Source of the DNA: Hydrurus foetidus
Lineage: Eukaryota
Assembly: GCA_900617105.1 (NCBI GenBank)
Contig: UYFQ01000005.1
Coordinates: 186,001-250,000, forward strand
Length of the DNA: 64,000 bases
Direction: 5' to 3'
This document shows, one piece after another, positions 32,959-60,966 of the stretch. The translations under genes and the position numbers were made by a program. Positions within the stretch are counted from its first letter, which is position 1. Each line of letters starts with the position of its first letter. The notes below the pieces were generated by a model. It saw only the letters and a list, made by a program, of their open reading frames with translations, was not told the origin of the DNA and made no database searches.

Positions 32959-32972
32959 GGGATGTTCCTTGC

Positions 32973-35866: not shown

Positions 35867-36631
35867 TTACTTTGCGGTAAAGCCACCATCAATCATGATG
35901 GTCTGTCCCGTGATGTAACTGGATGCATCGCTAGCCAAAAATACCGTTAAACCGTAAAGATCGGTCAGCTCGCCGTTTCGGCCAATACAGGTTTGATCCG
36001 CATTTTTTTGCGCAGCCTCAGCATTGCCAAAAACAGGCGCAGTTAGCGCAGTGGGGAAAAAGCCTGGCCCGACGGCATTACAGGTAATGCCTTTGCTAGA
36101 CCATTCTTGCGCGATTGCTTTGGTCAACTGAACCACGCCGCCTTTGCCTGCACCGTAAGGTGCGCTGTTTCCAAAGGCGCGGTAACTTTGCAGGCTAGCG
36201 ATATTGATGACGCGTCCCCAGCCTCGCTTAGCCATTGCGGGAGCTAATGCCTGCGTCAAGAAGAACGGCGCACTGAGGTGCAAGTTAATTTGAGTCTGCC
36301 AGCTCTCCGGTGTGACTTGCGCAAAGGGTTCGCGCAGGTTCACACCTGCAGCGTTGACCAGAACATCAACGGGGCCAAGTGCCAGTGCGGCTGCCACACC
36401 CGCTTGCGCAGCTTCGATATTTGCCAGATCGCAAGACAGGCACTGCACGGCAATGCCCTCGGCACGCAGCTTAGCGGCGGCCTGTTCCAGCGCGTCCAGG
36501 CGGCGCGCCATCAGCATCACCTTGGCCCCAGCTAGGCCCAAGGCCATGGCCATGGCTTCGCCGATGCCGGAATTCCCCCCGGTCACCAGTGCCGTCTTGC
36601 CACCGAGACTGAACAATTTGTCGAGCTTCAT
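35867..36631 (-). CDS. hpsO: SDR, DHPS 2-dehydrogenase type
   Basis: [17 protein letters not shown]; directly after hpsN. Confidence 0.75.
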
Positions 36632-36636: not shown

Positions 36637-37953
<1,317 letters not shown>

Positions 37954-39079: not shown

Positions 39080-39154
39080 GAGATTCTCCGTTTCGACAAA
39101 AGAAGGGGTTAATAAGCTAAGAGAGGTTGGTGTTCGATGGGCGAGGGTCAGTGG

Positions 39155-39952
39155 TCAGTGGTCAGTGCCAGCGTGCTCCTCTCGCAAGGACTTCCAGATG
39201 CGGGTGCGCAAGTGGACAAAGCTGTCGAGGTCCATCACATCCTCGATGCGGGAGTGCTGATCCCAGTTCTGTGCCTCGCGCACAGTCTTGATGTCCAGAA
39301 TTTCCTTGACCCGACCCGGGCGCGCGGCCATGATGACCACGCGGTCGGCCAAGTAGACGGCTTCTTCAACGGCGTGGGTGATGAAGAGCACAGTGCGCGG
39401 GTGCTTGCGTGCCAACTTGACCAACTCCTCCTGCATCACAACGCGGGTTTGCGCGTCCAATGCGCCAAACGGCTCGTCCATCAACAGCACGTCGGGGTCA
39501 AGCGCGTAGGCCCGCGCAATCGCCACACGCTGCTGCATGCCACCCGAGAGCTGGTGCGGGTAGGCTGACTCGTAACCCTTGAGGTTCATCAGCCCGATGT
39601 AGCGGTTGATGATCTCGGCACGCTGTGCTTGGGGCAGCTTCTTGGCACGCAGGCCGAAGTCAATGTTGTCGTACACCGATTTCCAAGGAAACAGTGCAAA
39701 CTGCTGGAACACCACGGCGCGGTCAGGCCCTGGCTGCGTAACGGGTTTGTCAGATACCAACAAACGACCCGAGGTGGGAAAGTCCAAGCCGGCTGCCATG
39801 CGCATACAGGTGGTCTTGCCGCAGCCCGAGGGGCCAACAACGGCAACAAACTCTTTGTCGCCCACCGTCAGTTCAAAACCTTCGATGATGGGAATGGTTT
39901 GGCCATTGCGCTGGAAGGCGCGACCGATCTGGCTGAATTCAATGGTGCTCAT
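39155..39952 (-). CDS. NitT/TauT-type ABC ATPase
   Basis: GPSGCGKT, LSGGMQQR, MDEPFGALD. Confidence 0.92.
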   Translation of the reverse strand: MSTIEFSQIGRAFQRNGQTIPIIEGFELTVGDKEFVAVVGPSGCGKTTCMRMAAGLDFPTSGRLLVSDKPVTQPGPDRAVVFQQFALFPWKSVYDNIDFGLRAKKLPQAQRAEIINRYIGLMNLKGYESAYPHQLSGGMQQRVAIARAYALDPDVLLMDEPFGALDAQTRVVMQEELVKLARKHPRTVLFITHAVEEAVYLADRVVIMAARPGRVKEILDIKTVREAQNWDQHSRIEDVMDLDSFVHLRTRIWKSLREEHAGTDH

Positions 39953-39975
39953 GATGACTCATTGTGGTTATGGAT

Positions 39976-40758
39976 TTAGTGGACGCTGCGGTGCTTCAGC
40001 AAGGTGGCTTCGATGCGGCGCAGTGCGAGATCAATCACCACGCCCACCAAGCCGATGGCCAACATACCCGCCATCACGATGTCGGTGGCAATCGCGCTCT
40101 GGCCTTTGACGATCAGATACCCCATGCCGCTAGAAGCCACAATCAGTTCCGCACCCACCAGCGACATCCAGCCCAGACCCGCTGCGATGCGCAGGCCCGC
40201 AATGATGCTGGGCACAGCCGCAGGAAACAGCACCTCTGTGATGGTCTTGAAATGGCCTACACCCAACATACTGGCCGCCTCCAGGAAGCGGATGTCCACC
40301 CCCCTAGCACCGCGATAGGCGTTGATAAGACATGGAGGAAAAGCACCCGCAAAAATAATCAGCGTCGGCCCACCGATGCCGGTGCCAAACCACAGTGCAG
40401 CAAACGGCACCCAAGCTACCGGGGCGATGAAGCGCAGGCCGTCAAACAGCGGGGAGACCACGTCGTCCAGCCAGCGGAACCAGCCCATCATCAACCCCAG
40501 CGGCACGCCGATCACCGCCGCCAAACCAAAACCCAGCCCAAAGCGTTGCAGACTGGAGAGCATGTGCTGCGGCAACGTGTAGCCCGAAAACGGTGTAAGC
40601 GACAGGCTAACAAAGCGTGCGACCACCTCATGCGGCATGGGTAAAAACTGCGGCGGTGCCAAGTGCAGCAAAGCAGCGGCATACCACACCCCCAGAAAAG
40701 CCAGGGCCCCCACAACCGACAGGTGCGCAAAGGGCGCAGAGTTGAAAAATGCCTTCAT
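39976..40758 (-). CDS. NitT/TauT-type ABC permease
   Basis: EAA motif, LVGAEL, TM helices. Confidence 0.9.
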   Translation of the reverse strand: MKAFFNSAPFAHLSVVGALAFLGVWYAAALLHLAPPQFLPMPHEVVARFVSLSLTPFSGYTLPQHMLSSLQRFGLGFGLAAVIGVPLGLMMGWFRWLDDVVSPLFDGLRFIAPVAWVPFAALWFGTGIGGPTLIIFAGAFPPCLINAYRGARGVDIRFLEAASMLGVGHFKTITEVLFPAAVPSIIAGLRIAAGLGWMSLVGAELIVASSGMGYLIVKGQSAIATDIVMAGMLAIGLVGVVIDLALRRIEATLLKHRSVH

Positions 40759-41561
40759 GCCGCCACCCGCCCTGCCCGCCAGGGCATCGCTCGCACCTCA
40801 GCCTTGGCCAGCAGTGCGGTGGTGACGCCACCGCAGATGGCGACACAGAGCATGGCCACCAGAATCATGGCGGGATAAATGTCTTGTGCGCCCTGGTTCA
40901 AGATACTGCCAAGACCAAACAAAGCACCAATCAACTCAGCCGCCACCAGCGTGGTCCAGCTGGCCTGTAACGACAACCGCAAGCCGGTGAAGATCATGGG
41001 AAAAGCGCCAGGCACCAACACCTCAGTCACCATCCGCCACCCACGCACGCCCAGCATTTGCGCCGCCTCCATCACTGGCACGTCGATGTTGCGCACGCCG
41101 GTGTAGCTGTTGATAACAGAGGGTACAAAAGCGGCGACAAAGATCACCAGGATTTTGGCCGCATCGCCCAGACCCAGCCAGACGATGGCCAGTGGTATCC
41201 AGGCCAACGGTGGTATCGGGCGCAGCAGCAAAAATGCTGGGTTGATGAGTGCCTCAGCGCGACGCGAGTGCCCCATCAGCAGCCCCATTGGTACGCCCAC
41301 CGCTACCGCCACGCTGAAGCCCATGGCCACCAGTTTGAGGCTGTGCAGTACATGCTGGTGCAAGCGCCCGTTGCCATAGCCCTCTGTGACGATCTGGCCC
41401 AACGCATCCCAAACCTCACCTGGGGTAGGGAAGCGCGAGGCCGTTACCCAACCCGTCACCGAAGTAGCCACCCACCAGAGCAGCAGAGCCGAGAGCACGG
41501 TGGTCAGGCCCACCCAGGTTCGACGCGAAAAACTCCAGAGTGGAGTCGTAGCAGTTGTCAT
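40755..41561 (-). CDS. NitT/TauT-type ABC permease
   Basis: RPIPPLAW, EAAQMLG, LVAAEL. Confidence 0.9.
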   Translation of the reverse strand: MTTATTPLWSFSRRTWVGLTTVLSALLLWWVATSVTGWVTASRFPTPGEVWDALGQIVTEGYGNGRLHQHVLHSLKLVAMGFSVAVAVGVPMGLLMGHSRRAEALINPAFLLLRPIPPLAWIPLAIVWLGLGDAAKILVIFVAAFVPSVINSYTGVRNIDVPVMEAAQMLGVRGWRMVTEVLVPGAFPMIFTGLRLSLQASWTTLVAAELIGALFGLGSILNQGAQDIYPAMILVAMLCVAICGGVTTALLAKAEVRAMPWRAGRVAA

Positions 41562-44373: not shown

Positions 44374-44382
44374 GGTGAGGCC

Positions 44383-48895: not shown

Positions 48896-49690
48896 TCAAC
48901 CGACAACCGACACCTGCGCCAGACCAGCATCCACGATCAAACTTTGACCCGTGATCCCTGCGCTCTCTTCACTGGCCAAGAACAACGTAGGCCGGGCCAC
49001 ATGCTCTGATTCCAAGCGGAATTTGAGGCATTGCAGGTCAATGAATTTTTGGTCTTCTTCGGGGTTGCGCCACAGAGCACTTTGGCGCTCGGTGACGATG
49101 GCACCGGGCACCAAGGCGTTCACGCGGATGCCGAATTCGCCCAGTTCTCTGGCGAGGCTGCGGGTCATGCCGCTGATCGCCGCTTTGCTGGTGGTGTAGC
49201 CGATCAAGTTGGGGCGGCCACGCATCCAGCTGATGCTGCCCATGTTGATGATGCTGCCGGGGAGCCCTGCGGCGCGGAGTTGGCGGGCCACGGTTTGGGT
49301 GGCGAAGACGTGGTGGCGCAAGTTGAGGTTGAGGCAGTTGTCCCAGTAGTCGGGGGTTAACTCGTCCAGGCTGTGGCGATCGTCGCGCCCGGCATTGTTG
49401 ACCAGCACCTGGATAGGGCCGAAGTGCTGGCCTACGCGCTCCAGCAGGGCTTGGACAGCAGGGACATCGCGCACATCGCAGGCTTCGTAGTACGGTGTGT
49501 GACAAAGGGGCGGTTGGCCTGCTTGGGTGATCTCAGCGATCAGCGCATCGCCGCCGCCTGGTTTAGTGCCGCAAAACGCAACTTTCGCGCCTTGCGCAGC
49601 AAACGACTTGACCAGCTCAGCGCCTATGCCTGAGCTGCCGCCTGAAATGAAGACGGTTTTGCCGGCCAGTGTGGGGTAGCTTGCACGCAT
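48896..49690 (-). CDS. SDR sugar 1-dehydrogenase (candidate sulfoquinovose dehydrogenase)
   Basis: SGGSSGIG, NNAGRDDRH, YTTSK; XylB-like. Confidence 0.8.
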   Translation of the reverse strand: MRASYPTLAGKTVFISGGSSGIGAELVKSFAAQGAKVAFCGTKPGGGDALIAEITQAGQPPLCHTPYYEACDVRDVPAVQALLERVGQHFGPIQVLVNNAGRDDRHSLDELTPDYWDNCLNLNLRHHVFATQTVARQLRAAGLPGSIINMGSISWMRGRPNLIGYTTSKAAISGMTRSLARELGEFGIRVNALVPGAIVTERQSALWRNPEEDQKFIDLQCLKFRLESEHVARPTLFLASEESAGITGQSLIVDAGLAQVSVVG

Positions 49691-49742
49691 GAATACTCCT
49701 GAATAAATAGCAGCATACGCCTATAGGACGTGCTGAAATGGG

Positions 49743-50600
49743 CTAAATAGGTTTGATTTTTACCTGCATCCAGGCTACCGTGGTGGCCTGGGGCTGTAGG
49801 ACGCGCACGCCCAGTGCCACCAACGCATCTTGCGTGCGCAGCGTGCCCAAGGCGTTGTTCACGTGGCTGACGGGTTCGATGGCGATAAAGTCTTTGCTGG
49901 GGTGGGTGAACACCACCAGATGGTTCAGCGACGATTGCAACTGGGTTTGAAACTGGCCATCGCGCAGGTGCAGCGTGCCTGCCCAGCCGTCAAAGCAGTG
50001 GTCTATGTCCAGCGCGTCACAGACGGCTTGCAGGCCGGAGGAGGTTTCGCGGTGTGCAGGCAGCTTGTCGTCGCCCATCGCCCAGCGGCCCGCCGCTTCA
50101 AACTGCACTTGGCTGCCAGGGCGTTTGACGAGAAACGGATGCCAGCCCAAGCCCACGGGTGCCGGGTGAGCGGCCTCGTTGGTAAGTGCCAAGCGCAGGG
50201 TGAGGCCTTGGTCGTCCAGTAGAAAGGTTTGCATGCAGGTGAACGCGAACGGCCATGCGGTATCGGGCAAGTGGGTGTAGCGCAAAGTGGCGGTGGTGTC
50301 GCTGGCAGTGACAACCTCCCAAGCACGCTCCCAAGCTGCGCCGTGGATGGCGTGGGCTTCGGGGGCGAAATTCGGCGTTAAGGGGTACACAGCGCCCGCC
50401 CAGTGCATTTGCGCGTTGCCGATGCGGTTGGAAAAGGGCACCAGCGGGTAGCTGGCGCTGGTGCGCACGCTGTGCAACCGCGCTGCGGGCGTGGAGCGCA
50501 GCACGGGCACGCCTGAGCGCCACAGGCCAGCGATGCAGCCACCCAGATCCGGCCTCAGCGCCAAGCGCAAATCACCGCAGACCAGCGCCAAACCCGCCAT
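49743..50600 (-). CDS. Aldose 1-epimerase (candidate SQ mutarotase)
   Basis: PFSNRI, AIHG, GWHP, IEPVSH. Confidence 0.85.
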   Translation of the reverse strand: MAGLALVCGDLRLALRPDLGGCIAGLWRSGVPVLRSTPAARLHSVRTSASYPLVPFSNRIGNAQMHWAGAVYPLTPNFAPEAHAIHGAAWERAWEVVTASDTTATLRYTHLPDTAWPFAFTCMQTFLLDDQGLTLRLALTNEAAHPAPVGLGWHPFLVKRPGSQVQFEAAGRWAMGDDKLPAHRETSSGLQAVCDALDIDHCFDGWAGTLHLRDGQFQTQLQSSLNHLVVFTHPSKDFIAIEPVSHVNNALGTLRTQDALVALGVRVLQPQATTVAWMQVKIKPI

Positions 50601-51724
50601 CAGTAGCCTGCGGGCAGCACGTCGCTCAGGGCCACGGGCAGACCGGTTTCTATGCTGCGGTGAGCGGCCAGGCCAGTGGCCACGCTGCGCATACCGTCTT
50701 CCAGGCTGACCTCAGGGGGCAAGCCTTGGCGGATGGCGTGGGCGAACTTTTGGTGTTCGATGTACGAAGCACCAAAGTGCTGCCCGGCGTAGCGGATGTT
50801 GGTGTCCCACACCCGGCGCACGGCCACGCCTTTGCCGCTGCCCGAAGGCTGGCCCCATACTTTGCGCGTGCCCCAGTCTTCACGGCGACCGTGGCGCAGG
50901 GTAAGCGAGGGAATCAGCGATTCCAGCTTGCCCTCGTCACCCACCACGGTGACATGCTCGTTGTCCACGGAGTTCTCAGCGAACATGCACAAATCGAGCA
51001 TGGCGCGGGCACCGCTGGCGTATTCGACGATGACGTAGGCGCTGTCCAGAATGTCGGGTTGCTGGCCGTCGTAGCGCTCGTTCAGGTGGTTGACACGTTG
51101 TGCACCCGAGGCGAACACGCGCACCGGCTTCTCTTGCAAGATGAAATCCATCAGGTTGAAGTAGTGGCAGCATTTCTCAACCAAGGTGCCACCGGTGTTG
51201 GCGGTGAAACGGTTCCAGTCGTCCACCTTGGGGTAAAACGGCTCGCGGTGTTCACGAATCGCCACTTGGTGCAAGCGCCCTACCGCCCCACCATGGGCCA
51301 TGCGGATCATCTCGGCCACGGGCGGCATGTAGCGGTACTCTTGCGCTACCCACACCAGCGGGCTGCGGCCCTGGGCTTTTTGCAGCAAATCCAGACAATC
51401 GGCCACGTTGGTGCAGAGCGGTTTTTCGATCAATAAATGCGCCTTGGTGGGCAAGGCCAGGCGCATCACATCGGCGTGGGTGAAGTTGGGCGTGGCAATG
51501 ACGATGGCATCACACAGATCACTGTCAAGCAGGTCTTCAAAGCGCTCAAACAGGCGGGGAGTGACGGCGGCACCACTCAGCAAGGCGCTGGCGGCTTGGC
51601 GGCTGGCCTCGTGAGGGTCGGCCAGAGCCACAACTTGCGCACCGTCGAGCGCCCGGATGTTTTCGATGTGCTCGCGGCCCATGCTGCCGCAACCAATGAT
51701 GCCGTAGCGAATTGTCTGAATCAT
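50600..51724 (-). CDS. Gfo/Idh/MocA protein, probable NAD+-dependent sulfoquinovosidase (GH188 type)
   Basis: GCGSMG, IEKP, EYRYMPP, REHREPF..KV.DWNRF...TGGTLVEKCCH; cluster context. Confidence 0.65.
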   Translation of the reverse strand: MIQTIRYGIIGCGSMGREHIENIRALDGAQVVALADPHEASRQAASALLSGAAVTPRLFERFEDLLDSDLCDAIVIATPNFTHADVMRLALPTKAHLLIEKPLCTNVADCLDLLQKAQGRSPLVWVAQEYRYMPPVAEMIRMAHGGAVGRLHQVAIREHREPFYPKVDDWNRFTANTGGTLVEKCCHYFNLMDFILQEKPVRVFASGAQRVNHLNERYDGQQPDILDSAYVIVEYASGARAMLDLCMFAENSVDNEHVTVVGDEGKLESLIPSLTLRHGRREDWGTRKVWGQPSGSGKGVAVRRVWDTNIRYAGQHFGASYIEHQKFAHAIRQGLPPEVSLEDGMRSVATGLAAHRSIETGLPVALSDVLPAGY

Positions 51725-51761
51725 GATGTTGAGTTGAAAAAGGGAAAAGTAGATGGCTGAA

Positions 51762-52592
51762 TCACCCTTTGAGACCGCCTTGCGTCAGCCCACCTACCAC
51801 ACGCTCTTGAAAGATCGCAATCAGCACCGCAATCGGTACGATCGCCACAATCAAGGCGGCGGAGATGATGGGCCAGGGGAAACTGAACTCACCTTGGTAC
51901 AGGCTGATGCCCACCGGCAAAGTGCGCATGGTGGCCCCGGAGTTGAGCGACAGGGCGAGCAAAAACTCGTCCCAAGCGTTCACAAAGGCCAAAATGCCAG
52001 CGGTAAAAATACCGGGTGCCGCCAAGGGCACCACCACCTGCCACAAGGCCCCCATGCGGGTACAGCCGTCGATCATGGCGGCGTTTTCCAGGTCTTTGGG
52101 AATGCTCTGGAAGAAGCTCACCAACACCAGCGTACACACGGGCAGATTCAGCACCACATAGGGCAACACCAGGGCGGTATAGCTGTTGAGCAGACCCAGC
52201 GTGCGCATGGTCTCGAAAATCGGCACCAACAGCGTGACCAGCGGGAACATGCTGGACGCGACAATGGCCGTCAAAATCATCTGCTTGTGCTTGAGGTTCA
52301 GCCGAGCAATGGCGTACGCGGCAAAGGCGGAAACCAACAGCGATAGCGCGGTAGATACCAGCGCCACCCAAAGGCTGTTGCCCAAATAGCGCAGCAGTGG
52401 CTGGTCGGTGAAGGCCTGCACGTAGTTTTCAAACGTAGGGCTGTGCGGGAACCAGGTGATCGGTTTTTGCACCAGCTCCACTTCCTTTTTCAAGGAGGTG
52501 AACAAAATCCACACGGCGGGGAAAAAACCGTTGAAGACCACCATCACCGCTGCGGCAATGCGCAAGTTGGTGGAAGACCATAAATTGTTCAT
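51762..52592 (-). CDS. Carbohydrate ABC permease
   Basis: LENAAMIDGC, AWDEFL. Confidence 0.9.
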   Translation of the reverse strand: MNNLWSSTNLRIAAAVMVVFNGFFPAVWILFTSLKKEVELVQKPITWFPHSPTFENYVQAFTDQPLLRYLGNSLWVALVSTALSLLVSAFAAYAIARLNLKHKQMILTAIVASSMFPLVTLLVPIFETMRTLGLLNSYTALVLPYVVLNLPVCTLVLVSFFQSIPKDLENAAMIDGCTRMGALWQVVVPLAAPGIFTAGILAFVNAWDEFLLALSLNSGATMRTLPVGISLYQGEFSFPWPIISAALIVAIVPIAVLIAIFQERVVGGLTQGGLKG

Positions 52593-53494
52593 GCTGAGCG
52601 TCCGATCCGCTTGAGGTAAAAGCCCGTGACCACCAGCGAGAGCAAGAACATGCACACCGCCAATGTAGAACCATAGCCCACATCGAGGTAATCGATGGTG
52701 GTTTTGTGGATGAGCATCGACAGGGTTTCGGTCGCATTGCCCGGTCCGCCTTTGGTCATGGTGTAAGGAATATCAAAGGTTTGCAGCGCAGTAATGGTGC
52801 GAAAAATCATTGCTACGATGATGCTGGGCATCAGCATAGGGATGGTGATTTGCCAAAACTGTTGCCAGCGGCTCGCACCGTCCACCTCCGCAGCTTCATA
52901 GAGCGTTTTGGGGATCATTTGCAAACCGGCCAACAAAATCAGCGCCATGAAAGACGATGTTTTCCAGATGATGGTGATGCAAATCGCCGCAAACGCCCAG
53001 TTGGGTTTAAGCAACCACATGGTGGCGGATTCCCCACCCAGGCGACGCACCACGTCGTTGATGACACCGTATTCGGTGTGGAAGAACCACGCAAAAATCA
53101 ACCCACAAAAGCTCAAAGGCAAGGCCCAGGGCAGCAGCAGCGCCAAGCGCACCGGCCACTTGCGCTTGAACGGCAGGTTCGCCAACATGGCCAACCCCAA
53201 ACCCACCACCAAGGCACCGGGGACGGTGATGAAGGTAATGAGCAGGGTGTTTTTGGTGGCGTTCCAAAAATCAGCGTCATTGAAGACATCGGCGTAGTTG
53301 CTCCAGCCCACAAACTTGACAGCACCGGAGCCGCCCGACAGGCGCAGGTCAAAAAAGCTGTTGAAAATCAACTTGCCTATCGGGTAGGCCACGATCATCG
53401 CCAGCAAAATGAAGGCCGGAGCCAGCAGCAAAAAGCCCAGTGTCTTTTCAGACGGGTCACGCAAGGTGTCACGCAGTTTGGCAAACACAGGCAT
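52589..53494 (-). CDS. Carbohydrate ABC permease
   Basis: LYEAAEVDGA, GGPGNAT. Confidence 0.9.
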   Translation of the reverse strand: MPVFAKLRDTLRDPSEKTLGFLLLAPAFILLAMIVAYPIGKLIFNSFFDLRLSGGSGAVKFVGWSNYADVFNDADFWNATKNTLLITFITVPGALVVGLGLAMLANLPFKRKWPVRLALLLPWALPLSFCGLIFAWFFHTEYGVINDVVRRLGGESATMWLLKPNWAFAAICITIIWKTSSFMALILLAGLQMIPKTLYEAAEVDGASRWQQFWQITIPMLMPSIIVAMIFRTITALQTFDIPYTMTKGGPGNATETLSMLIHKTTIDYLDVGYGSTLAVCMFLLSLVVTGFYLKRIGRSA

Positions 53495-53498
53495 CCCC

Positions 53499-54761
53499 TC
53501 AGCGCATGATGCGGTTCAAGCGGCTTTCGATCTCGCCCACGCCTTCAGCTGCTGTTTTGGTACGCGCCAGCACGGCGCTGGTGGTGGTGCGAATCACGTC
53601 GCTGACCTCTCCGTACCGGGCGCTGATGGGGCGGCTTTGCCCTGCCACCACCACAGCAGCGGCATCTTTGAACCATGGCACTTCTTTCACTACTTCAGGG
53701 TCGCTATAAACGCTTTGCACGGTGGGCAACAGCGAGCCTTCTTTGGCCAAAAACTTAGACGATGCGGGCGAAGAGATGAACTGCACGATTTTGGCCGCTG
53801 CGGCCTTGTTTTTACTGAACGCACTCACCGCCCACTGCCAGCCCCCCACACAGGTGGCGCTCTTGCCCCCGGCCATGGCGGGCAAGGGCATCACGCCGAC
53901 TTTGCCTTTGACGTTGCTGTCAGCATCGTCTTTGAAGCGGTCCCACGCAAAACCCCAGTTGATGCCGAACACCACTTGACCGGCTTTGAACTCGTTCACG
54001 GTGTCTGGTGTTTTGACTTCGGCTATGTTCTTTTTGGCCACACCCTGGTCCACCAAATTCAGCCACATGTCCATGCCTTTGGTGGCAGCTGCTTTGTCGA
54101 GTGTCATCTTGCCGGCGGCATCGTTGAAGGCTTTGCCTTGGCTCCAGTAGGGCAGCATGAAGGTGCATACCGCGCCTTCAATAGGCGCGCCTTGGAAGCT
54201 CAGGCCTTGCAGGTTGGGATTCTTTTCACCGGCCATGATGGTTTTGGAGGCAGCGGCCAGCTCATCCCAAGTTTTAGGTTCCTTGAGCGCGTATTTTTCG
54301 AGCAGGTCTTTGCGGTAGTACATGAACATCGCATCGGCAAACGCCGGCATGGCGGCGAGCTTGCCGTTCACCACGTTGGCCGTGCTGTACACCGGCAAAT
54401 AAGGGGCCAATGCGGCCGGGCCACCGAGGTAAGCGTCCAGTGGCTCCAGCCACCCAGCAGCCATGTACTGCGCAGGGTTCACGATATCGATCATGTACAC
54501 GTCGATGGTTTCATCTTTGGCGTTCAGCACAGTACTGAGGTACTGGCGTTGCAGCTCCGACGTGGCACCGCCCGTTTCCATGTCGATTTTGACGCTGGGG
54601 TTTTGTTTTTGGTACTCGTCAAACAGCTTTCGCATCAGGTCAGGGCGCTGATTTTGCCCACCCGAAAAAATGCGAACCGTGGTTTGCTGGGCCAAGGCGA
54701 TGTGGCTGGCCGAGGCGCAAGCCAGGGCAGCGAGAACTTGAAGGACTGTACGTTTTTGCAT
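53499..54761 (-). CDS. Carbohydrate ABC substrate-binding protein
   Basis: Signal peptide, YYRKDLL, PKTWDEL, GGWQWAV. Confidence 0.9.
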   Translation of the reverse strand: MQKRTVLQVLAALACASASHIALAQQTTVRIFSGGQNQRPDLMRKLFDEYQKQNPSVKIDMETGGATSELQRQYLSTVLNAKDETIDVYMIDIVNPAQYMAAGWLEPLDAYLGGPAALAPYLPVYSTANVVNGKLAAMPAFADAMFMYYRKDLLEKYALKEPKTWDELAAASKTIMAGEKNPNLQGLSFQGAPIEGAVCTFMLPYWSQGKAFNDAAGKMTLDKAAATKGMDMWLNLVDQGVAKKNIAEVKTPDTVNEFKAGQVVFGINWGFAWDRFKDDADSNVKGKVGVMPLPAMAGGKSATCVGGWQWAVSAFSKNKAAAAKIVQFISSPASSKFLAKEGSLLPTVQSVYSDPEVVKEVPWFKDAAAVVVAGQSRPISARYGEVSDVIRTTTSAVLARTKTAAEGVGEIESRLNRIMR

Positions 54762-54837
54762 GGTTGTCTCCGTTATAAATACCGTCGAGGTGAATCGTGA
54801 GGGGTAAAACGAGCAGCGCAGTGCTGCGAAAGGGGTC

Positions 54838-55914
54838 TCAGTGCAACGCCGCACCGGTTTGGCTGTCAAACAAATGCATATGTGCTTTGCTCAGGTAAAT
54901 CGGCACGGTGGTGCCAGGGGCCAGGTTGAAGCTGGCCGCACAGCGCGCCACCAACTCCACCTCACCCAAGCTGAACGTGACCAGCGTCTCGGCTCCCAGT
55001 GGCTCACTCAGCACAACTTTGGCGGGCAACTCAACCGCACCCAACGTGCCGGTGGGCGAAAGACCAATGTTCTCGGGGCGAATGCCAAAGGTCATGGTCT
55101 TGGGCGGCGCTGCGGGGATCAGACCTGTGGGCGCATCGAAAGCAGCAGAACCCACAGTGATGCGCGGCCCTTGTACGTTACAAGCTACTAAATTCATAGC
55201 AGGTGAGCCTGTAAAACCAGCTACAAACAGCGCTGCAGGCGTGTTGTAGATGTCGAAAGGTGTGGCGTACTGCATTTTGTTTCCCGCGCTCAGCACGGCG
55301 ATACGGTCAGCCAGCGTCATGGCTTCCACCTGATCGTGCGTCACGTAGATGATGGTGGCACCGAGGCGCTGGTGCAGTTTTTTGATCTCGGTGCGCATCT
55401 CACCACGCAGTTGGGCATCGAGGTTGGAAAGCGGTTCGTCAAACAAAAAAACCTTGGGTTGGCGCACGATGGCGCGGCCAATCGCCACCCGTTGGCGTTG
55501 CCCGCCCGACAGCGCACCGGGTTTGCGCTCCAGCATGTGGTCAATGCGCAGCAGCTTGGCCGCATCCATCACGCGGCGCTTGATTTCAGCCTCATCCGTG
55601 CCGCGAAGGCGCAGACCGAAGGCCATGTTGTCGTACAGACTTTTGTGCGGGTACAGCGCATAGTCTTGGAACACCATCGCAATGTCGCGGTTACGTGGGG
55701 GTTCGTCGTTCACGCGCTTTCCCCCGATCAGCACGTCACCGCTGCTGATCGTTTCCAGCCCTGCGATCATGCGCAGCAGCGTGGATTTGCCACAGCCCGA
55801 GGGGCCGACAAATACCACAAATTCGCCATCTTTGATCTGCAAATCAATGCCGTGGATAACTTTGGTCTTGCCGTCATACGATTTGGCAACCTGCTTGAGT
55901 TCTACGTTCGCCAT
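54838..55914 (-). CDS. Carbohydrate ABC ATPase (MalK/UgpC type)
   Basis: GPSGCGKS, LSGGQRQR, FDEPLSNLD, TOBE tail. Confidence 0.93.
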   Translation of the reverse strand: MANVELKQVAKSYDGKTKVIHGIDLQIKDGEFVVFVGPSGCGKSTLLRMIAGLETISSGDVLIGGKRVNDEPPRNRDIAMVFQDYALYPHKSLYDNMAFGLRLRGTDEAEIKRRVMDAAKLLRIDHMLERKPGALSGGQRQRVAIGRAIVRQPKVFLFDEPLSNLDAQLRGEMRTEIKKLHQRLGATIIYVTHDQVEAMTLADRIAVLSAGNKMQYATPFDIYNTPAALFVAGFTGSPAMNLVACNVQGPRITVGSAAFDAPTGLIPAAPPKTMTFGIRPENIGLSPTGTLGAVELPAKVVLSEPLGAETLVTFSLGEVELVARCAASFNLAPGTTVPIYLSKAHMHLFDSQTGAALH

Positions 55915-55956
55915 CTTGTCTCCTGGTTTTTTTAGGGTTAAAAGTACAAAGCCGCG

Positions 55957-56757
55957 TCAATAGCCCTGGCTGTGAATTTGGATGTCTTGAGAGCGAATGG
56001 CAGACAAGGTGCTGGCGCAGTTGCGCATCAGCAAGCCCAAATCTGACGCGCAGGCCAGAAAATCGAACCCCATCGCGCGGTAAGTGGCCACCGCTTCGGG
56101 TGTGCCGCCTACTGTGCCTATGGGCTTGCCCACAGCGTGGACACGGCGCACGGCATCGTGCGTGACGGCCAGCACGTCAGGGTGCATCAGGTTGCCCACA
56201 TGGCCCATGGCACCGCTCAGGTCACCCGGCCCGATAAACAAGGCATCCACACCGGGAACACTGGCGATCTCTTCGAGACGCTCCAGCGCGTAAGGGGATT
56301 CAATCTGCACGATCACGCCGATGCCGTCGTTGGCGACTTTAAAATAGTCTTTCACCGTACCAAAGCGCGAGCCCCGGCTCATGGCGGCCATGCCGCGCAC
56401 GCCCTGCGGTGCATATTTCGTAGCAGCTACCGCACGTCTGGCCTCGTCAGCGTCTTGAATGAAGGGGAACAACACCGTCTGCGCACCGGCATCGAGCACG
56501 CGCTTGACCATCACCGTGTCGTTCCACGGCACGCGGGTCACGGGCACCATCGGCGTACCGGCGATGGCTTGCAGCACATGCACAACATCCATCTGGTCCA
56601 GCGGTGTGTGCTCCATATCAACCACAGCCCAGTCAAAACCCGCGCAACCCACCGCTTCGGCAATCACCGGGCTGGCCGACATGATCCAGGTACCTACGGG
56701 GTAGCCGCCGGGCAAGTCGGTGCGGGCGAGCAGAGAAAAGAAAGGGTTTTTCATCAA
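55957..56757 (-). CDS. HpcH/HpaI aldolase (candidate KDSG aldolase)
   Basis: DMEH, TRVPWND, KRVLDAGA, QIES, FIGPGDLS. Confidence 0.88.
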   Translation of the reverse strand: MMKNPFFSLLARTDLPGGYPVGTWIMSASPVIAEAVGCAGFDWAVVDMEHTPLDQMDVVHVLQAIAGTPMVPVTRVPWNDTVMVKRVLDAGAQTVLFPFIQDADEARRAVAATKYAPQGVRGMAAMSRGSRFGTVKDYFKVANDGIGVIVQIESPYALERLEEIASVPGVDALFIGPGDLSGAMGHVGNLMHPDVLAVTHDAVRRVHAVGKPIGTVGGTPEAVATYRAMGFDFLACASDLGLLMRNCASTLSAIRSQDIQIHSQGY

Positions 56758-58487
56758 AATATCACCGGTTCAGGAAGTTGTTCAGGGCTTTGCAAAAAGT
56801 CGAAATCGCAGCCTTCGTGGGCTTGCGTCACGTGCTGCTGGTACAGGCGCACATAGCCACGTGGGGTGATGGCGGCGGGCTTGGGCAGTGCCGTACGGCG
56901 CTGCGCCAATTCGTCGTCGCTGACGTGCAGGTGCAGCAAGCGGCGCGCTAAATCCAGCTCAATCACGTCGCCATTGCGCACCAGCGCCAAGCAACCGCCC
57001 ACTGCGCTTTCAGGCGAGATATGCAGCACGCAGGTGCCGTAGTGGGTGCCACTCATGCGGGCATCGGAGAGGCGCAGCATGTCGCGCACACCGGCTTGCA
57101 GCAGCTTTTGAGGAATCGGCAGGTTGCCCCACTCGGGCATCCCCGGCCCGCCTACGGGGCCAGCGTTGCGCAGCACCAGCACGGTGTTGGCATCGCAGTC
57201 CAACTCGGGGTCAGCCATTGCTGCCAGCATAGCGGGCGGATTGTCAAACACCAGGGCACGGCCTTGGTGCTGTAGCAAGCTGGGCGTGGCGGCGCTGGGT
57301 TTGATGACGGCCCCTTCGGGGGCCAGATTGCCATGTAGCACGGCCAGTGCGGTCTGTGCCACGGGCGTGTCCAGCGGGCGAATGACGGTATCGTCATGCA
57401 CTTGGGCTGTGGCAATTTGCTCACCCAGGGTGATGCCGCTGATGGTCAACTCGTCCAATGACAGGTGTTCACTGATGACTTTCATCAGTGCGGGCAGGCC
57501 ACCGGCGTAGTAGAAGTCTTCCATCAACTTGTCGCCGTTGGGGAACAGGTTGGCGATGACGGGCACCTTGCGGCCCATCGCGTCCAGATCACTCAAATTC
57601 AATGCCACACCCGCCCGATGAGCCATCGCGATGAGGTGAACGCAGGCGTTGGTGGATCCTCCCAAGGCCATTTGCACAGCCAGTGCGTTCTGAAAAGAAC
57701 CACGGGTCAGGATGCGTTTCGGGGTTAAATCTTCCCAGACCATTTCCACAATCCGCTGTCCACAATCTGTCGCCATGCGGGTGTGGGCCGAATCCATCGC
57801 TGGGATCGAGCTGGCACCAGACAGCGTCAAGCCCAACGCTTCAACGATGCTGGTCATGGTGGAGGCCGTGCCCATGGTGTTGCAGGTGCCGGGCGCGCGG
57901 GTCATGCGGCCTTCCAGCGATTGCAGCTCTTTGGCGTCTATTTTTCCGGCCTGGAATTCATCCCAAAACATGCGGGTGTGGGTACCAGCACCGACAGTTT
58001 GCGAGACACCGTTTTTGACATACCGGTCGTTCAGCATGAAACCTGCGGGGCAAAACAGCATGGGAATGCCCGCACTGCACGCGCCCATTACCGTGCCAGG
58101 CGTGGTTTTGTCACAGCCCGCCAGAATCACCACACCGTCGCAGGGCAGGCTTCGCAGCAGCTCTTCAACTTCCATCGCCAAAAAGTTGCGGTACAGCATG
58201 GTGGTGGGCTTAACCATCACTTCGCCTAAGCTCATTGCGGGCAGCTCTACCGGAAAAGCACCGGCCAGCAAGATGCCGCGTTTTACCGCTTCGGCGCGCT
58301 CGCGCAAGTGGGAATGGCAGGGCGACAAGTCGCTCCAGGTGTTCAGCACAGCGATGAGAGGGCGTTCCATCACGTCCTCTCGCCGGATGCCCTGCTGCTG
58401 CATACGTTGACGGTGCGCAAAGCCCCGCATACCCGCGTCTGAGAACCAGAGGCGGCTGCGCAATTCAGACAAAGTTTTTTTAATCAC
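56754..58487 (-). CDS. IlvD/Edd sugar-acid dehydratase (candidate sulfogluconate dehydratase)
   Basis: PCH, GCDKT, GTCNTMGTAS, GGSTN, GMPE, SDARMSGT; start uncertain. Confidence 0.88.
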   Translation of the reverse strand: MIKKTLSELRSRLWFSDAGMRGFAHRQRMQQQGIRREDVMERPLIAVLNTWSDLSPCHSHLRERAEAVKRGILLAGAFPVELPAMSLGEVMVKPTTMLYRNFLAMEVEELLRSLPCDGVVILAGCDKTTPGTVMGACSAGIPMLFCPAGFMLNDRYVKNGVSQTVGAGTHTRMFWDEFQAGKIDAKELQSLEGRMTRAPGTCNTMGTASTMTSIVEALGLTLSGASSIPAMDSAHTRMATDCGQRIVEMVWEDLTPKRILTRGSFQNALAVQMALGGSTNACVHLIAMAHRAGVALNLSDLDAMGRKVPVIANLFPNGDKLMEDFYYAGGLPALMKVISEHLSLDELTISGITLGEQIATAQVHDDTVIRPLDTPVAQTALAVLHGNLAPEGAVIKPSAATPSLLQHQGRALVFDNPPAMLAAMADPELDCDANTVLVLRNAGPVGGPGMPEWGNLPIPQKLLQAGVRDMLRLSDARMSGTHYGTCVLHISPESAVGGCLALVRNGDVIELDLARRLLHLHVSDDELAQRRTALPKPAAITPRGYVRLYQQHVTQAHEGCDFDFLQSPEQLPEPVIF

Positions 58488-58510
58488 AAGAGTTCGGTAC
58501 TTGGCGTTGA

Positions 58511-58526
58511 GTGTTACCGCTAACAT
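58511..58526. promoter_or_regulatory. LacI-family (gluconate repressor type) operator
   Basis: GTGTTA-CCGC-TAACAT matches ATGTTA-N4-TAACAT between divergent genes. Confidence 0.75.
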
Positions 58527-58552
58527 TAACCGCTGTTGGCTACACTGTCATA

Positions 58553-59608
58553 GTGACAAACCCTAACCTTCTCAAAAAATTATTCAACAGCCGTGCCACA
58601 GGTCGAAGCACCTTGGTGGACGTGGCGGCCATCGCAGGTGTCACCACCATGACGATCTCGCGCTACTTGCGCGAACCTGAGCGCGTATCGCCTCTTACCT
58701 CCGCCAAAATCAAGGAAGCGCTTGACTCCACCGGCTACACGCCGAACAAGCAGGCGGGAGGTCTGGCCAGCGGCAAATCCCCGGTGATTGCAGCGGTGAT
58801 CCCCAATGTGGGCAACACATTGTTTGCAGAAACAGTGCAAGCGCTGTGTGACGTGTTCCACGGCTCGGGCTACGAGCTGCTCTTGTCTGCCACCAATTAC
58901 GACTTGGAACGCGAAGAAGAGCAGGTGCGTGCCATGCTGGGCTGGCTGCCTGCCGCGCTCATCATCACCGGGCGACGCCACACCGATGCCACCTTGCAAA
59001 TGATGCGCAACGCCCGTGACCGAGGCATGCCTGTGGTCGAAATCTGGGACAAAACAACCCGTCCGTCTGAGTTCATCCAGGTGGGGTTCAACCACCAAGA
59101 GGCCGGTGTCCTCATGGCCAAACACCTGATAGCGCGCGGCTACACAGATTTGACCTATGTGGACAGCGGCGTGCCTGACGATTTCCGTGCCCATGAACGC
59201 GGCCTGAGCTTTGTACGCCATGCCAAAGCGGCAGGCTGCACCGCCACCACGGTAATCGCCCCACGCGGCGAACCTATGGCAGCCGGACGTGCCACCCTGC
59301 GCACCCTGTACATGACAGGTCTGCCTCGGGCCTTGGCTTTTGCCAACGACCACTTGGCGGTGGGGGCTTATCTCCATGCCCAATCGGTAGGCTTGGCGGT
59401 GCCCGACACCGTAGCCATGCTGGGTTTTGGCGATATTGCCCTCGCCACCGAACTGGGCTCAGGCATCAGCAGCGTTGCCACCCAGCGGCACCAGATCGGG
59501 TTCGCTACGGCAACGCGCATTTTGCAAGCGCTGAGTGGCACAACGGCCAACACAGCCAACCTGCCCCCCGAGTTACGCCCCGAGGTGATTCACCGCTCCA
59601 GCACCTGA
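58553..59608 (+). CDS. LacI-family regulator (GntR/IdnR subgroup)
   Basis: TLVDVAAIAGVTTMTISRYL, GYTPN; start approximate. Confidence 0.88.
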   Translation: MTNPNLLKKLFNSRATGRSTLVDVAAIAGVTTMTISRYLREPERVSPLTSAKIKEALDSTGYTPNKQAGGLASGKSPVIAAVIPNVGNTLFAETVQALCDVFHGSGYELLLSATNYDLEREEEQVRAMLGWLPAALIITGRRHTDATLQMMRNARDRGMPVVEIWDKTTRPSEFIQVGFNHQEAGVLMAKHLIARGYTDLTYVDSGVPDDFRAHERGLSFVRHAKAAGCTATTVIAPRGEPMAAGRATLRTLYMTGLPRALAFANDHLAVGAYLHAQSVGLAVPDTVAMLGFGDIALATELGSGISSVATQRHQIGFATATRILQALSGTTANTANLPPELRPEVIHRSST

Positions 59609-59732: not shown

Positions 59733-59764
59733 ACCGTTAAATGTTAGCGATAACATTTAACGGT
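59733..59764. promoter_or_regulatory. Second operator within a perfect 14-bp-arm palindrome upstream of the porin
   Basis: ACCGTTAAATGTTA-GCGA-TAACATTTAACGGT. Confidence 0.75.
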
Positions 59765-59838: not shown

Positions 59839-60966
59839 ATGTTTCAACGCAAATGGGTGTCAGCCGCTGTGCTGACACTGCTCAGCGGCGCAGCCGCAGC
59901 ACAGTCCAGCGTCACGATTTACGGGCGCGTGGACACCGGTATCGTTACCGGTAAATTTGACTCCACGGGCAACCGCACTTTGGTGCAAAGCGGGCCATAT
60001 ACCGCATCCCGCCTGGGCTTTCGGGGCACCGAAGACCTGGGTGGTGGGCTGCGTGCCACCTTTGGCTTGGAAGCGGGTCTGAACATCGACACCGGCACCG
60101 GTGGGGCCACCGGCGGCGGCATTAACTTCAACCGTGGCTCGCAGGTGGCACTGGCCAGCGACAGCTGGGGTGAATTCGCTTTGGGCAAGATGTACATGCC
60201 CACCTTTTGGGTGTACCTAGGGTCTGACCCTGGCATTGGCGGGTTGGGCTTGGGCTCAATGGGCGCGTCCATCATGCAGCAGCACACCGCACTGACGGGC
60301 AAAACCGGTTGGGGTGGTTTTTACGACAACACCGTGCGCTACCGCACCCCCAACATGTCAGGACTGAAAGGTGAAATTGCCTACAGCTTGGGTTCAGAAA
60401 ACGCGAGCAACAGCGCTGCCAAAAACGATGGCAAAACCGCTGGCTTAAACGTGCAGTACGAGCAAGGCGCGATGTACTTGGGCGGCGCTTACCAAAAATT
60501 CACCGCAGCCATCGCAGGTACCACCGCTGGCACCTTCATCGGGGATGCGAACCAAACCACCTGGATGCTGGCTGGCCGCTACAAAATGGCGCCTGCCACC
60601 GTGGGCGTGAACTATGGCCGCACCAAAAATTCTACCGCCTGCCAAGCCACAGGCAATGCCGTGGGCTGCGACATGAGCACGTTCGCCATCAATTCGCGCT
60701 TTGACCTGACGGGCCAAAGTTCGATGGACGTGAGTTGGGCACAGCTCAAAGCCGACTCGGGCAGCTTGAGTGGCGCCAAGGCCAACACCTTGGCCATCGG
60801 CTACACCTACTACCTCTCTAAGCGCACTTGGATTTACACCCAGGCCGTGAAGATGAACAACAACAACCTTTCCAAATGGGGTCTGAACGGCGGTTTGGGC
60901 GTTGCGAACGACACCAAAGGTCTCAGTCCACAAGCCTTCTCCATCGGCGTGTTGCACATGTTCTAA
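59839..60966 (+). CDS. Gram-negative (betaproteobacterial) porin
   Basis: AQSSVTIYG, SRLGFRGTEDLGGGL, YYLSKRT, C-terminal Phe. Confidence 0.92.
   Translation: MFQRKWVSAAVLTLLSGAAAAQSSVTIYGRVDTGIVTGKFDSTGNRTLVQSGPYTASRLGFRGTEDLGGGLRATFGLEAGLNIDTGTGGATGGGINFNRGSQVALASDSWGEFALGKMYMPTFWVYLGSDPGIGGLGLGSMGASIMQQHTALTGKTGWGGFYDNTVRYRTPNMSGLKGEIAYSLGSENASNSAAKNDGKTAGLNVQYEQGAMYLGGAYQKFTAAIAGTTAGTFIGDANQTTWMLAGRYKMAPATVGVNYGRTKNSTACQATGNAVGCDMSTFAINSRFDLTGQSSMDVSWAQLKADSGSLSGAKANTLAIGYTYYLSKRTWIYTQAVKMNNNNLSKWGLNGGLGVANDTKGLSPQAFSIGVLHMF

What the first reader, a model, noticed from the sequence alone, without database searches (positions are those of the whole stretch)
48896..59608. Probable sulfo-Entner-Doudoroff operon with an NAD+-dependent (GH188-type) sulfoquinovosidase and no lactonase
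Seen: dehydratase, HpcH aldolase, sugar ABC, Gfo/Idh/MocA, mutarotase and SDR under a LacI. Known: Pseudomonas/Rhizobium sulfo-ED uses SDR, lactonase, IlvD/Edd dehydratase, HpcH aldolase, mutarotase, GH31 SQase and SLA dehydrogenase; GH188 SQases are annotated Gfo/Idh/MocA. Inference from recalled motifs: SQ-glycoside catabolism; lactonase, GH31 and SLA dehydrogenase are absent from the cluster.
Basis: partly seen in the sequence, partly recalled or inferred. Interest (0 to 1): 0.7.

Follow-up and report, generated by a model that had tools for sequence, protein, structure and literature searches.

The report
Sulfosugar breakdown operon linked to desulfonation
This bacterium carries an operon predicted to import and split the abundant plant and algal sulfur-sugar sulfoquinovose, and a nearby gene set that likely strips off the sulfur, so one cell would likely finish a job that is usually shared between two species.

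Summary
The Gfo/Idh/MocA protein matches solved GH188 sulfoquinovosidases with every catalytic residue kept. The SDR and the binding protein keep the sulfonate-binding residues of P. putida SQ dehydrogenase and of SmoF. Lactonase, GH31 and SLA dehydrogenase are absent from the whole window. GH188 in sulfo-ED clusters and lactonase-less clusters are already in print, and this scan noted a similar operon before on other DNA. (1) A DHPS/sulfolactate desulfonation cluster (hpsNOP, suyAB, slcC/comC-like) lies 5-21 kb away. In close relatives the suyAB block follows the operon directly, and several relatives fuse both into one gene run. In a family sample, 17 of 21 genomes with the SQ dehydrogenase carry suyB, against 12 of 180 without it. 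(2) The dehydrogenase has Gly in place of NAD-selecting Asp45, so it may use NADP+. (3) A conserved LacI operator also precedes the porin. An unlinked lactonase probably fills that gap. The enzyme that oxidises sulfolactaldehyde is not identified. Verdict: a new variant of a known pathway, on genomic evidence only.

The parts
48896..49690 (-). SQ 1-dehydrogenase (SDR), PpSQDH type, with Gly41 in place of NAD-selecting Asp45
   Evidence: Best PDB hit 9GWU, E 3.8e-74. D99, R101, R152, R154, Q198, Y160 and K164 equivalents kept (residues). Gly at the Asp45 position in 71 of 72 related loci, a gap in 1.
49743..50600 (-). Aldose 1-epimerase, candidate SQ mutarotase
   Evidence: Pfam PF01263. Closer to epimerases next to unlinked lactonases (52-53%) than to those in the other SQ clusters (39-48%), apart from L001/L002. 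Substrate not tested.
50600..51724 (-). GH188 NAD+-dependent sulfoquinovosidase (SqgA), Tyr variant at the L170 position
   Evidence: PDB 8QC3 E 1.8e-97 and 8QC2 E 3.9e-94; the next Gfo/Idh/MocA family hit is E 1e-26. K101, Y130, R160, K166, E183, H187 and H316 are kept, and invariant in 80 of 80 relatives.
51762..53494 (-). Two carbohydrate ABC permeases
   Evidence: PF00528
53499..54761 (-). SmoF-type SQ/SQ-glycerol binding protein
   Evidence: PDB 7NBZ E 8.6e-136; next hit 6.9e-61. 8 of 9 ligand residues listed in PMC8940949 are kept (Q12, S43, D67, D113, G166, T220, W276, R345; H13 is Asn).
54838..55914 (-). ABC ATPase (UgpC/MalK type)
55957..56754 (-). HpcH/HpaI aldolase, predicted KDSG aldolase
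   Evidence: PF03328; 52% identical to the aldolase of a Rhizobium sulfo-ED cluster
56754..58487 (-). IlvD/Edd dehydratase, predicted sulfogluconate dehydratase
   Evidence: 61% identical to WP_017967307.1, the accession named as the suspected SG dehydratase of R. leguminosarum SRDI565
58512..58525 (.). Palindromic LacI-type operator TGTTAsCGsTAACA
   Evidence: Conserved in all 9 aligned intergenic regions. Exact match in 42 of 115 loci held at that point. In the window: 2 sites with up to 2 mismatches, chance mean 0.48.
58553..59608 (+). LacI/GntR-type repressor
   Evidence: start inferred
59742..59755 (.). Second operator copy, upstream of the porin
   Evidence: 1 mismatch, inside a 14-bp perfect inverted repeat
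59839..60966 (+). Porin, probable outer-membrane entry for SQ glycosides
   Evidence: PF13609; operator upstream; same position in L001 and L002
42819..43529 (-). GntR/UTRA regulator of the suyAB block
   Evidence: sits between the SDR and suyA in L001, L002, L108 and L109
41761..42768 (+). HpsR-like LacI regulator
   Evidence: 48% identical to the regulator of the C. pinatubonensis HN-2 hps cluster
38027..41561 (-). Sulfonate-type ABC transporter (binding protein, ATPase, two permeases), probably for C3 sulfonates
   Evidence: TIGR01728 SsuA family; 52-69% identical to the ABC genes beside suyAB-like genes in Paracoccus versutus
36637..37950 (-). HpsN, (R)-DHPS 3-dehydrogenase
   Evidence: PDB 8V35, E 5.8e-232; 79% identical to annotated hpsN
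35867..36631 (-). HpsO-like SDR
   Evidence: PDB 8WWF HpsO, E 2e-76; 64% identical to annotated hpsO
34631..35830 (-). SerC-like class V aminotransferase inside the hps cluster; role unassigned
33562..34563 (-). HpsP-like Zn dehydrogenase
   Evidence: 58% identical to the gene at the hpsP position in C. pinatubonensis HN-2
31783..33254 (-). SuyA (32973-33254) and SuyB (31783-32958), (R)-sulfolactate sulfo-lyase
   Evidence: 61% and 84% identical to the two UxaA-family genes in the hpsRNOUP-suyAB cluster of C. pinatubonensis HN-2 (cluster order)
27514..31655 (-). TctC-type binding protein, SlcC-like D-2-hydroxyacid dehydrogenase (29675-30601), ComC-like Ldh_2 dehydrogenase (28599-29606), YeiH/SuyZ-like exporter (27514-28581)
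   Evidence: Pfam and NCBIfam. The SlcC and ComC names rest on family and context, not on comparison with the characterised enzymes.

Best explanation
The operon is predicted to import SQ-glycerol, release sulfoquinovose with a GH188 enzyme and split it by the sulfo-Entner-Doudoroff route into pyruvate and sulfolactaldehyde, which the same cell likely passes to the nearby SuyAB module to give a second pyruvate and sulfite. Proposed steps: the porin and a SmoF-type ABC transporter bring in SQGro or SQ, and relieve the LacI repressor at two operators. GH188 cleaves the glycoside with NAD+ as a catalytic cofactor. The epimerase sets the anomer. The SDR oxidises SQ to sulfogluconolactone, possibly with NADP+. 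The lactone is opened by an unlinked SMP-30 lactonase or by itself. The dehydratase and aldolase give pyruvate and (S)-SLA. (S)-SLA is oxidised to (S)-sulfolactate by an unlinked GabD-type enzyme; this step is inferred and no gene was found in the window. The SlcC/ComC-like pair turns (S)- into (R)-sulfolactate, SuyAB cleaves it, and YeiH exports the sulfur oxyanion. Shown: gene content, conserved active-site residues, operator and linkage. Inferred: every activity. My odds are 0.93 for the SQ/sulfo-ED part and about 0.65 for full mineralisation in one cell.
For: GH188, PpSQDH and SmoF are each the clear best solved-structure match, with sulfonate-binding residues kept. The next-best SDRs (4LVU, 7WWX) lack the R-G-R motif. 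The dehydratase and aldolase are 61% and 52% identical to a Rhizobium sulfo-ED cluster whose dehydratase has the accession of the SRDI565 enzyme. In L001 and L002 gntR-suyAB-tctC-slcC-comC-yeiH follows the SDR directly, and the window is the same layout with two insertions. L003 and L034 (and L070, with transporter genes inside the run) have suyA-suyB-slcC-comC-dehydratase-aldolase-GH188-SDR on one strand, with gaps of -4 to 28 bp in L034 (some starts approximate). I count six different gene orders linking the two modules. SuyB (79-97% identical) was found in 60 of 78 genomes behind the loci. In a 201-genome family sample, 17 of 21 SQDH-positive genomes carry it against 12 of 180 others (Fisher p 1e-13, not corrected for kinship). 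An unlinked lactonase was found in 10 of 10 lactonase-less genomes tested. A homolog also lies on a contig of the same depth as the window's contigs (52.5 against 50.6-52.6) in the runs that hold the window.
Against: There is no biochemical, growth or expression data. No SLA dehydrogenase gene lies in the window or in any of 30 loci of this SDR clade. A GabD-like gene at 59% or more was found in 7 of 9 genomes tested, but not in G002 (best 39%) or G034; these are MAGs of unstated completeness. HpsN cannot fill the gap, since it is specific for R-SLA while sulfoglycolysis gives the S form (PMC11382572). The SQ operator is not found at the suyAB or hps block in the window, so co-regulation is not shown. 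4 of 21 SQDH-positive genomes lack suyB, and 12 genomes have suyB without the SDR. The dehydratase scores 869.5 against a cut-off of 882 for L-arabinonate dehydratase, and the SDR's best NCBIfam model is D-xylose dehydrogenase, below its cut-off. No whole genome is held for the window.
Confidence: 0.65

Rival explanations
1. Ordinary two-tier case: the operon does sulfo-ED and the cell excretes sulfolactate or DHPS, while the hps/suy block is a separate scavenging unit for C3 sulfonates made by others.
For: The modules have separate regulators and share no operator in the window. No SLA dehydrogenase is linked. The C3 block has its own transporters. The hps part is absent from the closest relatives. 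P. putida and R. leguminosarum excrete sulfolactate.
Against: Relatives carry fused same-strand runs of both modules, and co-occurrence is strong. The window has no TauE exporter. A cell that holds slcC/comC/suyAB would be expected to use internal sulfolactate.
Confidence: 0.25
2. The substrate is another sulfosugar or sulfosugar glycoside, such as sulfofucose.
For: The GH188 has Tyr at the L170 position and the SDR is diverged. Tandem ED plus SuyAB without a known SLA dehydrogenase is shown for sulfofucose in Paracoccus wurundjeri.
Against: The sulfofucose route uses an enolase-family dehydratase, not IlvD/Edd. The sugar-hydroxyl contacts of PpSQDH, SmoF and SqgA are kept. The L170 contact is through the backbone amide.
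Confidence: 0.05
3. A non-phosphorylative pentose (xylose or arabinose) or inositol pathway, as automatic annotation suggests.
For: The top NCBIfam models are XylB, AraD and IolG.
Against: All three score below their cut-offs. The Rhizobium SG dehydratase is itself annotated araD. Sulfonate-specific residues occur in three separate proteins. The operon is linked to suyAB.
Confidence: 0.03

Closest known systems
[quoted passage not shown]
   Same: SDR SQ dehydrogenase, IlvD/Edd dehydratase, HpcH aldolase and LacI regulator; a SmoF-type ABC importer as in Rhizobium; a mutarotase as in P. putida.
   Different: GH188 instead of GH31; no lactonase, GabD or TauE in the cluster; Asp45 replaced by Gly; linked to suyAB/slcC/comC, whereas those two organisms excrete sulfolactate.
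GH188 SqgA (ArSqgA 8QC3/8QC6, FlSqgA 8QC2; Kaur et al. 2023, PMC10755693)
   Same: All catalytic and side-chain sulfonate-binding residues are kept. The paper already reports sqgA in sulfo-ED clusters and lists Comamonadaceae members.
   Different: Tyr in place of L170 in 80 of 80 relatives. PMC11465081 describes Tyr variants, with actinobacterial examples in sulfo-EMP-like clusters.
Tandem sulfofucolytic-ED / SlcC-ComC-SuyAB pathway of Paracoccus wurundjeri (PMC12421959)
   Same: ED-type cleavage and sulfolactate lyase in one cell; no classical SLA dehydrogenase; some related clusters lack a lactonase.
   Different: The substrate is sulfofucose, the dehydratase is of the enolase family, and the strain does not grow on SQ.
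hpsRNOUP-suyAB DHPS pathway of Cupriavidus pinatubonensis
   Same: HpsR, N, O, P and SuyAB at 48-84% identity, in the same order.
   Different: An ABC importer replaces HpsU, a SerC-like gene is inserted, and slcC/comC-like genes and yeiH are added. C. pinatubonensis cannot use SQ.
Predicted extended clusters: Ensifer sp. HO-A22 (sulfo-ED plus DHPS genes), Thermotogae/Chloroflexi sulfo-TAL plus SuyAB, lactonase-less Elstera clusters
   Same: These are published predictions of one-cell mineralisation, or of a lactonase-free sulfo-ED.
   Different: They are isolated examples in other lineages. Here coupling is the majority state across a Burkholderiales family sample, with fused operons.

Membership tests
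GH188 sulfoquinovosidase | High similarity to SqgA, well above other Gfo/Idh/MocA proteins | tested here: met
   E 1e-97 to 1e-94 against 1e-26 for the next family
GH188 sulfoquinovosidase | Catalytic K107, Y136, E189, H193, H321 | tested here: met
   K101, Y130, E183, H187, H316
GH188 sulfoquinovosidase | Sulfonate triad R166, K172 and the backbone of L170 | tested here: met
   R160, K166; L170 is Tyr164, a described variant with a backbone contact
GH188 sulfoquinovosidase | CAZy/dbCAN GH188 HMM score; NAD+-dependent hydrolysis of SQ glycosides | not testable with these tools
   No CAZy library and no assay available
Sulfo-ED pathway | SQ dehydrogenase with R152/R154 sulfonate pocket and D99, R101, Q198 | tested here: met
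Sulfo-ED pathway | NAD+-selecting Asp45 of PpSQDH | tested here: not met
   Gly41, followed by Thr-Lys; Lys or Arg at that third position in 70 of 72 relatives. The Rhizobium, Shinella and Ralstonia copies keep Asp. This is a feature of PpSQDH, not of the pathway.
Sulfo-ED pathway | IlvD/Edd SG dehydratase and HpcH KDSG aldolase | tested here: met
   61% and 52% identity to the Rhizobium cluster; no sulfonate residues are known to me for these two enzymes
Sulfo-ED pathway | SGL lactonase in the cluster | tested here: not met
   Absent from the window; unlinked homolog likely
Sulfo-ED pathway | SLA dehydrogenase (GabD/SlaB) or reductase in the cluster | tested here: not met
   GabD absent; none of the 11 genes from the SDR to the porin has a YihU-type (PF03446) match; the rest of the genome is not available
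Sulfo-ED pathway | Growth on SQ with a sulfogluconate intermediate | not testable with these tools
   Needs culture
SmoF-type SQ binding protein | Q12-S43-G166-T220 sulfonate pocket and D67, D113, W276, R345 | tested here: met
   All eight kept, H13 is Asn; the Q12 position varies among relatives
SuyAB sulfolactate lyase / hps DHPS pathway | Split UxaA-family pair in an hpsNOP context | tested here: met
SlcC/ComC sulfolactate racemase system | Orthology to the characterised Chromohalobacter enzymes | tested here: inconclusive
   The families fit (PF02826, PF02615; best model L-sulfolactate dehydrogenase, 230 against a cut-off of 500). No direct comparison was made.
Pentose Weimberg/Dahms pathway | XylB / AraD equivalog cut-offs | tested here: not met
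   297 against 400 and 869.5 against 882

The most novel reading that the evidence does not exclude
A widespread group of Comamonadaceae-type Burkholderiales mineralises sulfoquinovose completely, in one cell and without an oxygenase. It uses a streamlined sulfo-ED/SuyAB operon with an NADP+-using SQ dehydrogenase, no dedicated lactonase and an SLA-oxidising activity outside the known cluster genes. Such clusters would be missed by screens that demand a lactonase, and could explain 13C-SQ-labelled Comamonadaceae for which no pathway was predicted.
Probability: 0.35. Interest if true: 0.72.

Novelty: new variant of a known kind. Interest (0 to 1): 0.52.

Why it matters
SQ is made at about 10 billion tonnes a year. 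Reviews treat sulfo-ED as a half pathway whose sulfolactate must be mineralised by other bacteria, and call freshwater SQ turnover poorly resolved. PMC12421959 calls coexistence of both halves in one bacterium unusual. About one in ten genomes of this family sample carries the dehydrogenase (21 of 201), and most of these carry suyB, so one-cell mineralisation could be common in this lineage. A 2026 isotope study labelled two Comamonadaceae ASVs but predicted no pathway for their nearest genomes, using a screen that required all core enzymes including the lactonase. The minimal fused operons also give a tractable handle on the open 'missing SLA oxidation step', and on a possible cofactor switch in SQ dehydrogenase.

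Tried and rejected
Pentose and inositol annotation: rejected (see rivals). HpsN as the missing SLA dehydrogenase: rejected, because it is R-specific and the closest relatives have no close copy (best 59% in 5 genomes). The HpsP-like Zn dehydrogenase as SLA dehydrogenase: not supported. A same-family candidate was inactive in P. wurundjeri, and the gene was not found in 5 relatives (no positive control in that call). Clustering of unassigned ORFs in the 80 loci found lactonase, GabD, TauE, GlpD and a TonB receptor, but no conserved new candidate for SLA oxidation in the window's clade. The ALDH beside L060 lacks R171/R289. Weak GH31 homologs (25-28%) occur in 3 of 80 loci. The careful tree did not finish, so the quick tree was used; 7 of 72 locus SDRs were left out as partial or broken. 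The lactonase-free clade may reflect a single loss, so 0 of 30 is not 30 independent events. No RNA holder was listed, and two poly(A) RNA runs gave no reads, which is no test. Felux et al. 2015 was not held, so it is cited only through other papers. No SuyAB structure was found by sequence. No fold or complex prediction was run. The two genomes nearest the labelled ASVs could not be looked up by name with these tools.


Full report
Observation. The nine minus-strand genes from 58487 down to 48896 form one tight run with gaps of -1 to 76 bp, opposite a LacI gene. Pfam gives IlvD/Edd, HpcH, ABC ATPase, binding protein, two permeases, Gfo/Idh/MocA, aldose epimerase and SDR. Lactonase, GH31, GabD and TauE probes find nothing in the 64 kb window. 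No whole genome is held. The closest genome loci are unnamed Betaproteobacteria MAGs (95% and 92% for the GH188 protein), then Rhodoferax and Polaromonas MAGs. The host is therefore inferred to be a Comamonadaceae-type member of the Burkholderiales.

Three independent sulfonate signatures. (a) The Gfo/Idh/MocA protein hits 8QC3 and 8QC2 at E 1e-97 and 1e-94, against 1e-26 for the next family. PMC10755693 identifies these entries as the GH188 enzymes ArSqgA and FlSqgA. Mapping its residue list on the printed alignment gives K101, Y130, R160, K166, E183, H187 and H316, all invariant in 80 of 80 relatives. L170 is Tyr164, a variant described in PMC11465081, whose contact is through the backbone. 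(b) The SDR's best hit is SQ 1-dehydrogenase 9GWU. It keeps D99, R101, R152, R154 and Q198, while the next hits lack the R-G-R motif. (c) The binding protein's best hit is SmoF, E 8.6e-136, with 8 of 9 ligand residues kept. The dehydratase is 61% identical to WP_017967307.1, the suspected SG dehydratase of R. leguminosarum SRDI565, which RefSeq calls araD. This explains the misleading pentose labels.

Cofactor. PpSQDH prefers NAD+ strongly over NADP+ (described as a million-fold), and the paper ties this to Asp45. Here that position is Gly, as in 71 of 72 related loci, with Lys or Arg two residues on in 70 of 72. Rhizobium, Shinella and Ralstonia copies keep Asp. I infer use or tolerance of NADP+, at about 0.6; the basic residue is not at the textbook position, as recalled from SDR classification. 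A search for 'sulfoquinovose dehydrogenase' with 'NADP' listed 4 papers; none of the listed titles or abstract openings mentions an NADP+-preferring SQ dehydrogenase.

Regulation. A palindrome TGTTAsCGsTAACA is conserved between lacI and the dehydratase in 9 of 9 aligned regions and matches exactly in 42 of 115 loci then held. In the window it occurs there and before the porin. With 2 mismatches allowed, 9 of 100 shuffles also gave 2 matches, so the porin site rests on its position and its perfect 14-bp arms. It does not occur at the C3 block.

The missing lactonase. The genome scan kept the best 80 of 326 matching stretches; 72 of the 80 hold the SDR. SDRs at 72% or more identity to the window's have a lactonase in 0 of 30 loci and a GabD in 0 of 30. 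The other SDRs have them in 28 of 42 and 9 of 42. Among loci of at least 19 kb the lactonase counts are 0 of 12 and 19 of 25. A quick tree of 66 SDRs puts 29 lactonase-less rows, with the window, in one clade at support 100, so this may be a single loss. An unlinked SMP-30 lactonase, 51-55% identical to the cluster type, is in 10 of 10 lactonase-less genomes tested, and homologs are in 120 of 201 family genomes (cluster copies included). In the two runs that hold the window in full, a 4.2 kb contig of matching depth (52.5 against 50.6-52.6) carries the homolog at about 81% DNA identity; I did not check its frame. Supply from elsewhere in the genome, or spontaneous opening of the lactone, is therefore the simplest reading. 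Lactonase-less clusters are already noted for Elstera and for sulfofucose clusters.

At 27514-43529 the window holds gntR, hpsR, a sulfonate ABC transporter, hpsN, hpsO, a SerC-like gene, hpsP, suyA, suyB, tctC, slcC-like, comC-like and yeiH. The hps and suy genes are 48-84% identical to the C. pinatubonensis HN-2 cluster. In L001 and L002 the gntR-suyAB-tctC-slcC-comC-yeiH block follows the SDR directly. The window is this layout with a 5 kb and a 9 kb insertion, the second carrying the hps genes. L108 and L109 have the same joined run. L003, L034 and L070 place suyAB-slcC-comC in front of the dehydratase on one strand, and other loci use divergent or convergent layouts; I count six orders. 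C3 genes lie within the fetched flanks in 16 of 72 SDR loci, and in 9 of 12 full-length loci of the window's clade against 4 of 25 of the other. SuyB was found in 60 of 78 genomes (two loci were left out as second loci of one genome). As a control, 201 genomes drawn from the family of G001 gave 21 with the SDR and 29 with SuyB, 17 with both. The tool gave no completeness values, and the count is not corrected for kinship.

The gap. Sulfoglycolysis yields S-SLA, and HpsN takes only R-SLA. An unlinked GabD-like gene at 59% or more, keeping the proposed sulfonate arginines R171/R289, is in 7 of 9 genomes tested. It was not found in G002 or G034. I take an unlinked GabD as the likeliest SLA dehydrogenase. 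In the window, reduction to S-DHPS followed by HpsO/P/N is a second route, but it needs an SLA reductase that I did not find. The same step is unresolved in P. wurundjeri.

Comparison and novelty. The locus works like sulfo-ED and the glycosidase is a GH188 member. By gene content it is not a canonical sulfo-ED cluster, since lactonase and SLA dehydrogenase are missing. GH188 in sulfo-ED clusters and in Comamonadaceae is published. One-cell mineralisation is shown for sulfofucose and predicted for Ensifer HO-A22 and some sulfo-TAL clusters. I found no account of fused sulfo-ED/suyAB operons in Burkholderiales in searches, which cover only the open library. In PMC13372026 two labelled Comamonadaceae ASVs have no predicted pathway, and the screen required all core enzymes. 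Whether their genomes carry this cluster is untested. Earlier scan notes reported a similar operon on other DNA. Lake-water, freshwater and biofilm metagenomes hold 0.23-0.30 of the operon's words, and one of them was laid and gave short pieces.

Papers seen. PMC10755693: parts 1-3 of 4 and term searches in its supplements. PMC11465081: body text. PMC12421959: parts 1-2 of 9 and passages. PMC13372026: passages, sections 22-23, and supplement rows (30 of 39 Burkholderiales places). PMC10599462: passages and section 12. PMC12133307, PMC12890257, PMC13436972, PMC11382572, PMC8940949, PMC9594981 and bioRxiv 10.1101/2019.12.17.868638: passages only. Felux 2015: not seen. Figures and unread supplements (for example Figure 5 and Table S3 of PMC10755693, Fig. 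S10 of PMC13372026) may already show clusters like this one.

Verdict. The feature is real and was correctly read. It is a new variant of a known pathway. Its interest lies in the coupling to desulfonation, the likely cofactor switch and the missing SLA step. Interest 0.52.

Noticed in passing
window 34631-35830 (-): A SerC-like class V aminotransferase sits between hpsO and hpsP, where C. pinatubonensis has the MFS importer hpsU. It could link cysteate or cysteinolate to sulfopyruvate; untested.
   Followed up: no
L040 14381, L053 5129, L056 8006, L061 14382, L068 5941: The SQ operator lies beside a TonB-dependent receptor gene next to the SQ cluster in these loci, a candidate outer-membrane importer for SQ glycosides.
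   Followed up: partly
L036 14023-15618 and 19 other loci: A GlpD glycerol-3-phosphate dehydrogenase lies next to the SQ cluster, usually just after the SDR, in 20 of 42 loci of the other SDR clade and 0 of 30 of the window's clade. This fits use of the glycerol from SQGro.
   Followed up: partly
L105 (Ralstonia wenshanensis plasmid CP076412.1): A sulfo-ED-like cluster with neither an annotated glycosidase nor a lactonase, with porin and GlpD; its SDR keeps Asp45.
   Followed up: no
L013, L034, L052, L060, L065, L070, L110: Several window-clade clusters lack the ABC binding protein, and some (L052, L060, L065, L110) have a TctC-type binding protein in its place between aldolase and GH188, suggesting a second mode of SQ uptake.
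   Followed up: no
window 43562-48896: A 5 kb insertion relative to L001/L002: glutathione S-transferase, DoxX, LysR, chemoreceptor, single-Cache protein and a 125-aa ORF with no family match.
   Followed up: partly
window 16001-22000: A low-GC stretch (43-48% against about 59%) with what looks by eye like an IS110-type transposase ORF at 18939-20135; not checked.
   Followed up: no
window 59768-59807: A perfect 17-bp inverted repeat between the porin operator and the porin start.
   Followed up: no
L016, L025, L039, L043: Several genes are split into two ORFs, probably long-read frameshift errors; this matters if Polaromonas sp. P2-4 is chosen as a test strain.
   Followed up: no
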